Part shown: piece by piece, positions 1,153 through 11,723 of the stretch
Layout of the letters: every line of letters begins with the position of its first letter
Position numbering within the stretch: position 1 is the first letter of the stretch
IMG/VR virus record: IMGVR_UViG_3300022932_000016
Coordinates: 1-19,905 of that record
Reading direction: 5' to 3' (one strand)
Source: a virus
Taxonomy: Duplodnaviria; Heunggongvirae; Uroviricota; Caudoviricetes
DNA: 19,905 nucleotides
Program-made: the position numbers and the translations under genes
Notes under the pieces: generated by a model
What the model was told of the DNA's origin: nothing
The model's input: only the letters and a program-made list of their open reading frames with translations
Databases searched by the model: none

Positions 1153-1216
1153 TGGCTCTGCACACGGGTTGCAACGTCATTGGGGAGATATCATGCCCTT
1201 TGACACATGTGCAGAG
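1153..1216 (-). ncRNA. CCA-ended tRNA-like RNA A (64 nt, no anticodon arm)
   Basis: CTCTGCACA/TGTGCAGAG terminal stem followed by CCA, D-arm-like GTGT CAAAGG GCAT and a degenerate T-arm ACG TTGCAACC CGT. Sits between tRNA-Ser and tRNA-His with 2- and 5-nt spacers. Confidence 0.6.
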
Positions 1217-1757: not shown

Positions 1758-1873
1758 TGGCACCCCCGCAAACCTTTAGGGTGAGCTAACAAGTGTTTTT
1801 TATAACGCGTATGTTGCACTTGCTTGCCTGCGTATCTACTCAGGTAATTAAGCTGAGCACTACAAACGGGGGT
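1758..1873 (-). ncRNA. CCA-ended non-cloverleaf RNA C (116 nt)
   Basis: 8-bp terminal stem ACCCCCGT/GCGGGGGT + G + CCA. Hairpins GCTCAG/CTGAGT, AGCAAGTG/CACTTGTT and ACC-CTAAA-GGT. Flanked by 5-nt AATAT spacers like the neighbouring tRNAs. Confidence 0.65.
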
Positions 1874-2075: not shown

Positions 2076-2156
2076 TCGGGGAGCCAGGAGTTGAACCTGG
2101 GCATCGGGACTATATTACTCAGCTGCCCGCAGCACTATCGTTATGCTTACTCCCCG
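2076..2156 (-). tRNA. tRNA-like gene with a Pro-type acceptor, a 17-nt anticodon loop and no encoded CCA
   Basis: Perfect acceptor CGGGGAG/CTCCCCG + A73, D-arm AGCA/TGCT, T-arm CCAGG TTCAACT CCTGG. Anticodon stem CGGG/CCCG encloses CAGCTGAGTAATATAGT. Confidence 0.7.
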
Positions 2157-2489: not shown

Positions 2490-2845
2490 TGGGTGCTGGG
2501 TTTTGTTGATTTGTTACCAGCGTCTCGGTCAAGGTTAGCCCGCATCACGCGTGACTATCCTTGTCGAACCGATCAGACCTTTCATCGGTAGTCTGAATGA
2601 GCCTTATACTCTAGAGTCGCTTATCTCTCTTGAGCAGGGTGCGCTGAACGCTCCATAGGTCGGCAGACCTGTCGTACAACCATATTCGAGGGATAGGAGT
2701 GTATGCCCCAGCTTAATCTATCGCTCTTTGCAATAGACCCTCTGTTAACTCGACCACGCGCTACCCATCTCGGTTTCAAGCGTCGTCACAGAGTTTCACT
2801 CTCCGTTTGCAGCTATACCGAGCCAAAGCCTTGTCCGTCGGTTTA
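2490..2845 (-). ncRNA. Large structured RNA D (about 350 nt, 5' end approximate) ending in CCA
   Basis: No long ORF. Many stems, including CTCGGT/ACCGAG, GGGT(A)GCGC/GCGCACCC, TCTATTGC/GCGATAGA, AGGTC/GACCT, TCAGAC/GTCTGA and CAAGG-TAGTC-CGC/GCG-GGCTA-CCTTG. The 3' end ...CCCAGCAC-CCA lies 5 nt before tRNA-Trp. Confidence 0.7.
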
Positions 2846-2851
2846 ATTGTT

Positions 2852-2887
2852 AAAAAAAGACACCTACTTTTTTGGGTAGATGTCTTT
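2852..2887 (-). terminator. Intrinsic terminator of attenuator 2
   Basis: 12-bp stem AAAGACATCTAC/GTAGGTGTCTTT with an 8-nt loop, running into a U-tract. Confidence 0.85.
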
Positions 2888-3212: not shown

Positions 3213-3309
3213 GTATCGTGAGAAGGTGCTACGAGAAGTTTCGGCTCATACGTCCATGCAATTCCTGCCTGGTTTGACCTCGTAATCATACTTGCTACCA
3301 ACATGTATT
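3213..3309 (-). ncRNA. Structured 97-nt spacer element E
   Basis: TACGAG/CTCGTA stem enclosing the hairpin CCA-G-GCA GGAAT TGC-A-TGG; much longer than the usual 2-8 nt spacers. Confidence 0.35.
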
Positions 3310-3469: not shown

Positions 3470-3697
3470 TTATATTTCTGCTTTGAGGTATTTATCGAGC
3501 AGGTCGTTGACTTGAGTAATGTGAATCATACCAGCTTGTTTCACAGCTATTTCACCAAAGTGTCTGCGTAGTACTTCAAAACCCTGTTCGAGTGCTTGCG
3601 TTTCTTCTTCAATGATGTCGCGAGTTAGGTCATGCACTAGACTTTCAGCTTGTCGTTTGACTAAGTTTGGGTCTGGGTCTTTGCGGTATGCTTCCAT
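3470..3697 (-). CDS. Hypothetical protein (75 aa) inserted in the tRNA array
   Basis: MEAYRKDPDPNLVKRQAESLV..., TATAAT (3704-3709) 6 nt before the ATG, stop abutting tRNA-Arg. Confidence 0.7.
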   Translation of the reverse strand: MEAYRKDPDPNLVKRQAESLVHDLTRDIIEEETQALEQGFEVLRRHFGEIAVKQAGMIHITQVNDLLDKYLKAEI

Positions 3698-3795: not shown

Positions 3796-3873
3796 TGGAG
3801 CCCCTCACGGAGTCGAACCGTTCTTCGTACCTACCACGGTACGCGTGCTAACCAGCGTTACACTAATTGGGGC
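3796..3873 (-). tRNA. Aberrant tRNA-Thr(GGU)-like gene with an 8-nt anticodon loop
   Basis: GCCCC/GGGGC acceptor with distal mismatches, D-arm GTGT/GCAC, CGTAC CGTGGTAG GTACG, 4-bp T-stem with TTCGACT, CCA. Confidence 0.65.
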
Positions 3874-3957: not shown

Positions 3958-4033
3958 TGGTAGTCCCAGAAGGAATTGCACCCTCGACACCTTGTTCCGA
4001 AGACAAGTGCTCTATCTGCTGAGCTATGGGACT
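3958..4033 (-). tRNA. trnR: tRNA-Arg(UCG)
   Basis: CTTGT CTTCGGA ACAAG, variant T-loop TGCAATT, CCA. Confidence 0.92.
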
Positions 4034-4036
4034 ATA

Positions 4037-4140
4037 TGGTGCACGGGGGTAGCTTTAGGCTACCTCTATTCTAATAACGCTTTGGTGCACCTCTACGCTT
4101 TCGATTCTCGAGCCACGTTGCAACGATGTGCTCTCCGTAC
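4037..4140 (-). ncRNA. CCA-ended non-cloverleaf RNA B (104 nt)
   Basis: Terminal stem GTACGG/CCGTGC + A + CCA, 3' hairpin GGTAGC-CTAAA-GCTACC, 5' hairpin GAGC...CGTTGCAACG...GCTC, flanked by 5- and 3-nt spacers. Confidence 0.65.
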
Positions 4141-4145
4141 TAATT

Positions 4146-4230
4146 TGGTTGCGGGGACGGGATTCGAACCCGTGTATCTTGCGACAAAGGGATATGAGCC
4201 CTCCGAGAATGACCACTTCTCAACCCCGCT
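4146..4230 (-). tRNA. trnfM: Initiator-type tRNA-Met(CAU) with a long variable arm
   Basis: 1:72 mismatch (A-A), three G-C pairs GGG/CCC in the anticodon stem, loop CTCATAT, variable arm TGTC-GCAA-GATA, ACCA; 85 nt. Confidence 0.9.
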
Positions 4231-10790: not shown

Positions 10791-11723
10791 ATGAAAAAAC
10801 CTATTCTACGCATGATGGTTGGTCTGCCTGGCTCAGGTAAGAGCACAGCAGCTAGTGAACTAACAGACAACAGCACCCCTGAAGAAACTTGGGTGCAGGT
10901 TGAAAAAGATATTATTCGTAAAGACGGAAGTCTTTTTGAGGGCGGTAAGTACGACCACGACCGAGGTGACGAAGCTATCGTTATTCGTGAACGCAACCGT
11001 CAGATTCGTGACGCGCTACGAGCTGGTAACAGTGTAGTCGTTTCAGACACAAACCTAGACCCCAAGCACCGTGGTCAACTTCGAATGCTGGCTACAGAGA
11101 CCGACGTAGATTTTGAAGTCGATGACAGCTTCTTAGACGTATCGGTTGATGAATGTATTAAACGTGATGAAGACCGCGAACAAAGTATCGGTAAAGACGT
11201 TATCTTAGATATGTATTACAAATACGTACACCCAGGCTTTCACCAACGTCGTTCTGACTGGAAAGACAAGCTACCACGTGCGTTCTTGTGCGACATCGAC
11301 GGTACGCTGGCTCACAACTATACTGGGCGAAGCTGGTACGATCTTGACCTAGTAAAGAATGACACACCAAACTACGCACTGACACACATCTTCGACGCTA
11401 TCGACCTGTTTCGTGATGACTTTTCACGTAAGCACACGAAGTACACACACATCATTCTCTTGAGTGGTCGTAAAGAGGGTGCTCGGGCTGCTACAGAAGC
11501 ATGGTTAGACCAATGGTCAATACCGTATGATGAACTCATTATGCGCGCAGACAACGACGACCGACAGGACGCCATCACAAAGAAAGAGCTGTACGAGCAA
11601 CACATCAAAGACCGATACAATGTTCTTGCGGTATTTGATGACCGTCCACAGGTAGTCGATATGTGGCGACGTGACCTTGGTTTGATGGTATTTCAAGCTG
11701 CTGACCACGACTTGAAGTTTTAG
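10791..11723 (+). CDS. pseT: Polynucleotide 5'-kinase/3'-phosphatase (T4 PseT-like)
   Basis: N-terminal P-loop GLPGSGKS with DTNL; C-terminal HAD domain CDIDGTLA, SGR, K and FDDRPQVVDMWR. Confidence 0.9.
   Translation: MKKPILRMMVGLPGSGKSTAASELTDNSTPEETWVQVEKDIIRKDGSLFEGGKYDHDRGDEAIVIRERNRQIRDALRAGNSVVVSDTNLDPKHRGQLRMLATETDVDFEVDDSFLDVSVDECIKRDEDREQSIGKDVILDMYYKYVHPGFHQRRSDWKDKLPRAFLCDIDGTLAHNYTGRSWYDLDLVKNDTPNYALTHIFDAIDLFRDDFSRKHTKYTHIILLSGRKEGARAATEAWLDQWSIPYDELIMRADNDDRQDAITKKELYEQHIKDRYNVLAVFDDRPQVVDMWRRDLGLMVFQAADHDLKF

What the first reader, a model, noticed from the sequence alone, without database searches (positions are those of the whole stretch)
4037..4140. CCA-ended RNA B: an acceptor stem and CUAAA hairpin without a cloverleaf
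It fills an exact tRNA slot between tRNA-fMet and tRNA-Arg. It has a 6-bp acceptor-like stem plus ACCA, and a 6-bp hairpin with a CTAAA loop where a T-arm would be. No T-loop or standard anticodon arm is present. The same CTAAA-loop hairpin position occurs in RNA C, suggesting a family. Inference: a decoy or mimic for enzymes acting on tRNA 3' ends (nucleotidyltransferase toxins, CCA-modifying toxSAS, exonucleases), or a specialised aminoacyl carrier.
Basis: partly seen in the sequence, partly recalled or inferred. Interest (0 to 1): 0.7.

Follow-up and report, generated by a model that had tools for sequence, protein, structure and literature searches.

The report
Phage tRNA-mimic RNA with CUAAA loop
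Between two tRNA genes this phage encodes a conserved 104-base RNA that keeps the "handle" end of a tRNA but replaces the usual T-loop with a fixed CCUAAAG loop; three otherwise different phage RNAs share this handle, which makes it an uncatalogued variant of the long-unexplained small RNAs of phage tRNA clusters.

Summary
RNA B (4140-4037, minus strand) lies between tRNA-fMet and tRNA-Arg(UCG) of an 84-kb phage. It has a 6-bp acceptor-like stem, ACCA and a 6-bp CUAAA hairpin, and neither ARAGORN nor Rfam recognises it. It is 97-100% conserved in five close relatives.

A 92-nt sister type occurs in tRNA arrays of three other phages. Its fold covaries (8 of 29 pairs change on both sides, none broken) while the loops stay fixed. 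In B, the 92-nt type and RNA C, the 7-mer CCUAAAG sits exactly at T-loop positions 54-60, 12 nt before N73-CCA; 0 of 261 array tRNAs carry it.

The 5' two-thirds of the three types do not align beyond chance, so they share a 3' module, not a whole-length family. The discriminator varies (A, C, G), which argues against an aminoacyl carrier and weakens a CCA-toxin decoy.

Most likely this is a processed stable RNA on a tRNA top-half chassis whose loop is read by a partner. It is a new variant of the T4/T5 "stable RNA" kind. The scan has noted that kind on other phages, but my look-ups found no note of this module on other DNA. Expression, host and function are untested.

The parts
4037..4140 (-). 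RNA B, 104-nt non-canonical CCA-ended RNA (four-way junction)
   Evidence: conserved 97-100% in L001, L002, L003, L005, L121
4135..4140 (-). 5' strand of the 6-bp acceptor-like stem
   Evidence: pair probability 0.97-0.98
4110..4133 (-). Arm P2 at the D-arm position, capped by the palindrome UUGCAA (4123-4118)
   Evidence: predicted, probability 0.81-0.97; invariant in close relatives, so no covariation evidence
4076..4099 (-). Arm P3 at the anticodon-arm position (internal loop, UGCA tetraloop); no 7-nt anticodon loop
   Evidence: predicted, probability 0.77-0.93; the two substitutions seen are unpaired or G-C to G.U
4048..4064 (-). Arm P4 at the T-arm position, 6 bp, loop CUAAA
   Evidence: probability >=0.99; the stem covaries across homologous 3' modules while the loop is fixed
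4053..4059 (-). CCUAAAG 7-mer in exact T-loop register (positions 54-60; A57 and A58 in place), 12 nt before the discriminator
   Evidence: gap-free alignment with three array tRNAs; distance count
4037..4046 (-). 3' acceptor strand, discriminator A and encoded CCA
   Evidence: sequence
4146..4230 (-). upstream tRNA-Met(CAU), initiator-like
   Evidence: ARAGORN and Rfam
3958..4033 (-). downstream tRNA-Arg(UCG)
   Evidence: ARAGORN and Rfam
1758..1873 (-). RNA C: different interior, 8-bp acceptor + 2 nt + 3-bp hairpin, same CCUAAAG loop (1780-1774) at the same 12-nt distance, discriminator G
   Evidence: homologue in L036
4574..4813 (-). promoter-like site (4813-4785) and terminator-like hairpin (4589-4574) in front of the tRNA unit that contains RNA B
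   Evidence: consensus scan only, counts not above shuffles

Best explanation
RNA B is a small stable non-coding RNA made as part of the phage's polycistronic tRNA transcript. Its 3' part is a tRNA top-half chassis: acceptor-like stem, stacked hairpin and NCCA, with the same 12-nt length from loop to discriminator as a tRNA (shown). The host's tRNA-maturation enzymes would cut it out and the stem plus CCA would protect it (inferred from how tRNAs and the T4/T5 stable RNAs are thought to be handled; my knowledge). In place of the TPsiC loop it carries a fixed CCUAAAG loop that three different RNA types keep (shown). It has no usable anticodon and no constant charging identity (shown), so it would not decode. 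The likeliest job is an uncharged tRNA-shaped ligand: the loop, at the elbow position, is read by a protein or docks on another loop, and the exchangeable 5' arms give each type its specificity (inferred; partner unknown). It is an optional cassette that occurs in different array slots.
For: Conservation at tRNA level in phages 85-91% identical in the flanking DNA, while the neighbouring Val and Arg genes differ by up to 15/77 and 30/76. A 92-nt sister type in three arrays: L036 in the same slot, L147/G001 after Met(CAU) in a phage whose terminase is 32% identical, L184 between Pro and Asn. In it 87/87 cells pair, 8 of 29 pairs change on both sides, 0/500 shuffles reach this, slid controls pair 26-47%. 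Four different P4 stems around an unchanged CCUAAAG, plus RNA C's 3-bp stem. Loop-to-CCA distance 13 nt in B, all three 92-mers and both C types; one 14-nt exception in a C homopolymer run in L003. 0 of 261 array tRNAs have this loop. Slot empty or differently filled in L109, L102, L110, L111, L033, L115, L247. Precedent for expressed non-tRNA RNAs in phage tRNA clusters.
Against: No expression, end-mapping or binding data. Covariation rests on three sequences of the sister type, two of them closely similar; RNA B's own type has no double-sided change. Homology of B to the 92-nt type is secure only for about the last 40 nt, and those homologues were found with patterns that contain the loop, so loop invariance is partly built into the search. 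The independent parts are RNA C, the L036 copies (found through a protein) and the constant distance in L184. No partner protein identified; no Ro60/TROVE gene in the genome.
Confidence: 0.5

Rival explanations
1. Decoy for enzymes that attack tRNA 3' ends (toxSAS pyrophosphokinases, MenT/AbiEii nucleotidyltransferases, exonucleases): an uncharged stem-NCCA soaks up the toxin.
For: Encoded NCCA on a stable stem in every copy. The phage carries a polynucleotide kinase and some relatives an RNA ligase, consistent with pressure on tRNAs. toxSAS act in phage defence (10.1101/2024.07.05.602228).
Against: FaRel2 selects on acceptor pairs 1, 2, 4 and 5. Acceptor sequence and discriminator differ between types (G1-C72 versus C1-G72; A, C or G73), while the fixed element is the distant loop. 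Nearly 30 real tRNAs with CCA sit beside it and would offer the same end.
Confidence: 0.15
2. Self-associating structural RNA: palindromic P2 loops let copies kiss or dimerise into a scaffold, and the tRNA-like end is only a processing handle.
For: The P2 loops of B (UUGCAA), the 92-nt type (GUAC in an invariant 9-nt loop) and C (AAUU) all have self-complementary centres. RNA A keeps a palindrome through a double change, UUGCAA to UUAUAA. ROOL and GOLLD, large RNAs linked to tRNA arrays and phages, form oligomers (PMC12286853).
Against: Noticed post hoc; a 4-nt palindrome in a 9-nt loop is common (about 1 in 3). B's palindrome partly follows from its own stem. The predicted duplex of C's loop is negligible (-0.4 kcal/mol). 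It does not explain the fixed CCUAAAG.
Confidence: 0.12
3. Decayed or rearranged tRNA gene, or a neutral spacer.
For: Exact tRNA register of the 3' end; the array holds several deviant tRNAs; the slot is empty in relatives.
Against: 0-3 changes in 104 nt among relatives, all compatible with the fold; compensatory changes in the sister type; the same non-tRNA loop in three types and in distant phages, and in none of 261 tRNAs. An origin from a tRNA is plausible; neutral decay is not.
Confidence: 0.07
4. Specialised aminoacyl carrier (for example for cell-wall or lipid aminoacylation, or a non-canonical tRNA of the allo-tRNA sort).
For: Stem + NCCA and tRNA-length top half. The P3 loops read UGCA or (A/G)GGCA, which contain the Ala anticodons UGC and GGC.
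Against: No G3.U70; discriminator A in most copies but C in L184 and G in RNA C; only 6 acceptor pairs; the P3 loop is 4-5 nt with no U33; no tRNA or tRNA-Sec Rfam score for any copy.
Confidence: 0.06
5. Small ribozyme or cis-acting processing element that helps mature the flanking tRNAs.
For: Invariant loops and junction (9-nt P2 loop, AACAA linker) in the 92-nt type look like a tertiary core. tRNA-linked phage ribozymes are known (my knowledge: theta ribozymes).
Against: No match to any Rfam ribozyme; flanking tRNAs are mature-looking and adjacent where the cassette is absent; its own NCCA end suggests a product, not a cutter.
Confidence: 0.05

Closest known systems
Phage T5 stable RNAs I, III and IV (AY543070; 107, 106 and 103 nt; annotated 'stable RNA with unknown functions')
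   Same: Same size class, in a phage tRNA cluster, closed by an acceptor-like stem, no TPsiC loop; RNA I ends in GCCA.
   Different: No CCUAAAG hairpin in their sequences, and none is hit by models R2 or R3; no shared module among them was seen.
Phage T4 rnaC and rnaD (species 1 and 2 RNAs; NC_000866 70908-71171)
   Same: Transcribed from the tRNA region, stem-closed, CCA-ended, role unknown (PMC3014915, PMC9697503).
   Different: rnaC keeps a canonical UUCGAAU T-loop; neither has the CUAAA module; no model hit.
Canonical bacterial tRNA (Rfam RF00005)
   Same: 12 nt between the 7-mer loop and N73-CCA; A57 and A58 in register; G53-C61 in RNA B; four-way junction.
   Different: No U54-U55-C56, no D-loop GG, no 7-nt anticodon loop, pair 7:66 mismatched, 54:60 can pair; no Rfam or ARAGORN score.
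YrlA-type Y RNAs (Rfam RF02553) with Ro60/Rsr
   Same: tRNA-mimic small RNAs also found in phages.
   Different: They keep a T-loop and lack a free acceptor end (my knowledge); no Rfam hit; no TROVE gene in this complete genome.
allo-tRNAs and tRNA-Sec-like RNAs with non-7/5 acceptor/T splits (Mukai et al. 2017; from memory)
   Same: Keep a total acceptor + T length with a different split (6+1+5/6 in B, 8+2+3 in C).
   Different: Those keep a T-loop and an anticodon loop; these RNAs have neither.

Membership tests
tRNA (RF00005) | Acceptor stem of 7 bp with N73-CCA | tested here: not met
   6 bp, then an A.C mismatch; NCCA present
tRNA (RF00005) | T-loop with U54-U55-C56-R57-A58 | tested here: not met
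   CCUAAAG in register; only A57 and A58 fit; 0 of 261 array tRNAs have it
tRNA (RF00005) | 5-bp anticodon stem with 7-nt loop and U33 | tested here: not met
   P3 loop of 4-5 nt
tRNA (RF00005) | Covariance-model score above the gathering threshold | tested here: not met
   no hit at E<=5 or E<=10 for B or the 92-nt type
T4/T5-type stable RNAs of phage tRNA clusters (a descriptive class) | Lies inside a phage tRNA cluster, same strand, tRNA-like spacing | tested here: met
   phage genes
T4/T5-type stable RNAs of phage tRNA clusters (a descriptive class) | Terminal stem with (N)CCA, non-cloverleaf body | tested here: met
   compared with T4 and T5 RNAs fetched
T4/T5-type stable RNAs of phage tRNA clusters (a descriptive class) | Accumulates as a discrete stable RNA in infection | not testable with these tools
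   no RNA data
T4/T5-type stable RNAs of phage tRNA clusters (a descriptive class) | Sequence homology to a named T4 or T5 RNA | tested here: not met
   models R1-R3 hit none of them in L119/L120; blastn of cultured phages gives chance hits only
YrlA-type Y RNA | Ro60/TROVE gene nearby or in the genome | tested here: not met
   PF05731 absent from G000; controls ring in 2 of 14 genomes
YrlA-type Y RNA | RF02553 match | tested here: not met
tmRNA tRNA-like domain | G3.U70 Ala identity, T-loop, RF00023 match | tested here: not met
   pair 3 is A-U or C-G; the genome's tmRNA is a separate gene
Structural T-loop motif (pentaloop, trans pair 1:5, U-turn) | Three-dimensional fold with an intercalation site | not testable with these tools
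   sequence fits Y-U-N-R-A from memory; needs probing or a structure

The most novel reading that the evidence does not exclude
These phages use a modular 'CCUAAAG top-half' as an alternative tRNA elbow: a portable chassis, cut out by the tRNA machinery, onto which unrelated RNA arms are grafted, and which a dedicated host or phage protein (for example a defence sensor or effector that reads tRNA elbows) recognises. That would give a first defined, testable structural signature for part of the T4/T5-type stable RNAs.
Probability: 0.25. Interest if true: 0.8.

Novelty: new variant of a known kind. Interest (0 to 1): 0.52.

Why it matters
Non-tRNA RNAs in phage tRNA clusters have long been known from T4 and T5, and their role is still unknown (PMC3014915, PMC9697503). 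Here one such RNA comes with natural variants that separate what is held fixed (the loop sequence, the 12-nt tRNA ruler, NCCA) from what is free (stem sequence, discriminator, 5' arms). That gives direct mutational tests of processing and binding. It also shows that an invariant non-TPsiC loop can occupy the tRNA elbow position in three RNA types. The limit is that the phages are uncultured, the host is unknown and only a handful of sequences exist.

Tried and rejected
ARAGORN relaxed and Rfam at permissive E-values: nothing for B or the 92-nt type. blastn of B, the L036 copy and RNA C against cultured phages, and of the L147 copy against plasmids: chance hits or none. Pattern scans for the 5' palindrome, for RNA C's loop region and for loop + CCGTG returned only close relatives and chance hits. 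I first read short shared words between B and the L036 RNA (ATCGTT, TAGRGG.GCAC) as homology of the interior; shuffle tests did not support this, so I dropped it. Pairing of the 3' end with the internal GGUGCAC is possible but 3.2 kcal/mol worse than the acceptor fold. No antisense target of 12 nt or more in the phage genome. No Ro60/TROVE and no PF09414 RNA ligase in G000. Host: GTDB scans with RecT and with the tmRNA 5' end found nothing; terminase relatives among cultured phages are below 40%; Atlas gave only phage clusters. The long tmRNA tags and G55 T-loops made me suspect a Patescibacteria host; this is from memory and untested. Literature searches for CUAAA with T-loop and for CCA-ended phage RNAs found no description. 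The single metagenome scan went to RecT and gave no new copy, so metagenomes were not scanned for the RNA itself.

Full report
Setting. The window is the start of an 83.9-kb phage record with tape-measure, portal, terminase, tail-fibre, RecT, Gam-like and polynucleotide-kinase genes and a standard tmRNA. A minus-strand array of nearly 30 tRNA genes runs from 4560 to 996. The host could not be assigned.

Observation. RNA B reads 4140 to 4037 on the minus strand, 5 nt after the CCA of an initiator-like tRNA-Met and 3 nt before tRNA-Arg(UCG). It has a 6-bp acceptor-like stem, A73, CCA, and a 6-bp hairpin with a CUAAA loop, all at pair probabilities of 0.97 or more. Both features together occur in 3.5e-5 of shuffles. 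ARAGORN and Rfam see nothing. Two further arms (nt 8-31 and 42-65) make the predicted fold a four-way junction with non-canonical arms.

Conservation in close relatives. Four phages 85-91% identical in the surrounding DNA carry B with 0, 1, 2 and 3 differences, and a fifth (L121) carries it unchanged, while the flanking Val and Arg genes differ by up to 15 of 77 and 30 of 76 positions. The changes are unpaired, turn a Watson-Crick pair into G.U, or add a C to a C run. None touches the loop. There is no double-sided change in this type, so its arms P2 and P3 rest on prediction.

A sister type. A homologue of the small ORF inside the array led to L036, where the same slot holds a 92-nt RNA with the same AGC-CUAAA-GCU hairpin and NCCA. 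Two pattern scans each added one copy in a tRNA array among chance hits: L147, in a phage whose terminase is 32% identical, again right after Met(CAU), and L184, between Pro and Asn, with no blastn similarity to this genome. A model built from L036 and L147 scores L184 at 99 bits. Over the three, all 87 cells pair, 8 of 29 pairs change on both sides, no shuffle of 500 reaches this, and slid controls pair 26-47%. The 9-nt P2 loop, the AACAA linker and the CCUAAAG loop are invariant. Caveat: three sequences, two of them similar.

What is shared and what is not. The model of the 92-nt type finds B as its best hit in the window at exactly 4037-4140, but only at 15 bits, E = 0.055. The reciprocal model scores the 92-mers at 14-19 bits, level with ordinary tRNAs. 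Interiors align no better than shuffles (p 0.29-0.88). So the demonstrable kinship covers about the last 40 nt. RNA C is a third type, with its own homologue in L036, an 8-bp acceptor and only a 3-bp hairpin.

The key regularity. In B, all three 92-mers and both RNA C variants, CCUAAAG is followed by exactly 12 nt and then N73-CCA; L003 has one extra C in a homopolymer run. A gap-free alignment puts the 7-mer on the T-loop of the array's own tRNAs, with A57 and A58 in place. The split of the 12 nt between hairpin, linker and acceptor differs between types, and the stems differ in sequence, yet loop and distance hold. None of 261 distinct tRNAs in 17 array loci has this loop. Part of the invariance is built into my search patterns; RNA C, the two L036 copies and the distance in L184 are independent of them. 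The discriminator is A, C or G and pair 1 is G-C or C-G.

Optional cassette. The slot after Met(CAU) is empty in L109, L102, L110 and L115, holds a second Met(CAU) tRNA in L111, a 46-nt stub in L033 and two other CCA-ended RNAs in L247. L109 is as close in RecT (91%) as L036 (89%), so the element is gained, lost or exchanged quickly.

Mechanism. Shown: position, stems, ruler, fixed loop, lack of an anticodon, variable charging identity. Inferred from general knowledge: RNase P and the 3' trimming enzymes recognise the acceptor-plus-T helix and NCCA, so the RNA would be released with the tRNAs and stabilised. Processing alone would not require a fixed non-canonical loop, so I infer that the loop is read, by a protein or by a tertiary contact, and that the RNA acts as an uncharged tRNA-shaped ligand with type-specific arms (0.5). 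A CCA-toxin decoy remains possible (0.15), but toxSAS specificity lies in acceptor pairs, which vary. Self-association through palindromic loops is a post hoc lead (0.12). Decay (0.07), aminoacyl carrier (0.06) and ribozyme (0.05) fit poorly.

Comparison. It resembles T5 RNAs I, III and IV and T4 rnaC/rnaD in place, size and closure; the T4 RNAs are expressed and of unknown role. It is not homologous to them, is not a tRNA, Y RNA or tmRNA fragment by the tests listed, and I found no paper on the CUAAA module. Earlier scan notes describe the T4/T5 kind on other phages; a sequence look-up of the 92-nt type found nothing.

Verdict. A real, conserved element; a new variant of a known but unexplained kind, marked by a shared alternative-elbow module. 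Interest 0.52.

Noticed in passing
window 1153-1216 (-); L003, L005, L036 copies: RNA A keeps a 6-nt palindrome near its 3' stem: UUGCAA here, UUAUAA in L036 (a double change that preserves self-complementarity); its terminal stem also covaries; the L036 copy ends in CUA, not CCA.
   Followed up: partly
window 2098-2156 (-): tRNA-like gene with a full T-arm but an oversized anticodon loop and no CCA; L036 has an ARAGORN tRNA-Leu(GAG) in this slot and L105 a related CCA-ended form called Gly(GCC).
   Followed up: no
window 3213-3300 (-); L033, L111, L147, L247, L250: Another non-tRNA element next to array tRNAs with a conserved core CAAACC/UCAGCAGGA(A/G)UUGC, present in distant phages; no Rfam match in the window.
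   Followed up: no
window 2490-2880 (-): Large structured non-coding region; its first part (GACGGACRAGGCU...GAUGGGUAGCG) recurs in L036, L105, L110, L111 and L184.
   Followed up: no
window 3796-3873 (-): Deviant tRNA with an 8-nt anticodon loop and a 2-nt bulge after the T-stem, conserved in close relatives; L109 has Thr(GGU) in this slot.
   Followed up: no
L033 5783-5828 and L247 7485-7520: Small H-type pseudoknot with a GUUAAAC linker right after tRNA-Met(CAU); looks like the first stem of a pistol ribozyme from memory; untested.
   Followed up: no
L007, L111, L115, just upstream of tRNA-Trp: About 75-nt RNAs that look like the tRNA-like domain of tmRNA alone (GGGG...ACUCCACCA or GCUCCACCA end), without a message.
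   Followed up: no
L105 5117-5291 (-): A 175-nt non-tRNA insert between Tyr and Asp with a CCUAAAG-capped hairpin whose stem ends 12 nt after the loop but without CCA; not hit by models R1 or R2.
   Followed up: partly
L012 9778-10130 (-) (genome 66778-67130); L241 7517-7855: Phage-encoded tmRNAs with long tags (26 and 24 residues); ARAGORN labels them permuted, but Rfam matches the standard one-piece model for the G000 copy.
   Followed up: partly
window 3470-3697 (-): 75-aa ORF inside the tRNA array, directly after a TATAAT-like element and conserved at 73-96% in relatives; no Pfam family.
   Followed up: partly
window 10791-11723 (+); L105, L109, G001: Polynucleotide kinase is present but the RNA ligase gene that precedes it in L105 and L109 is missing from this genome and from G005.
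   Followed up: yes
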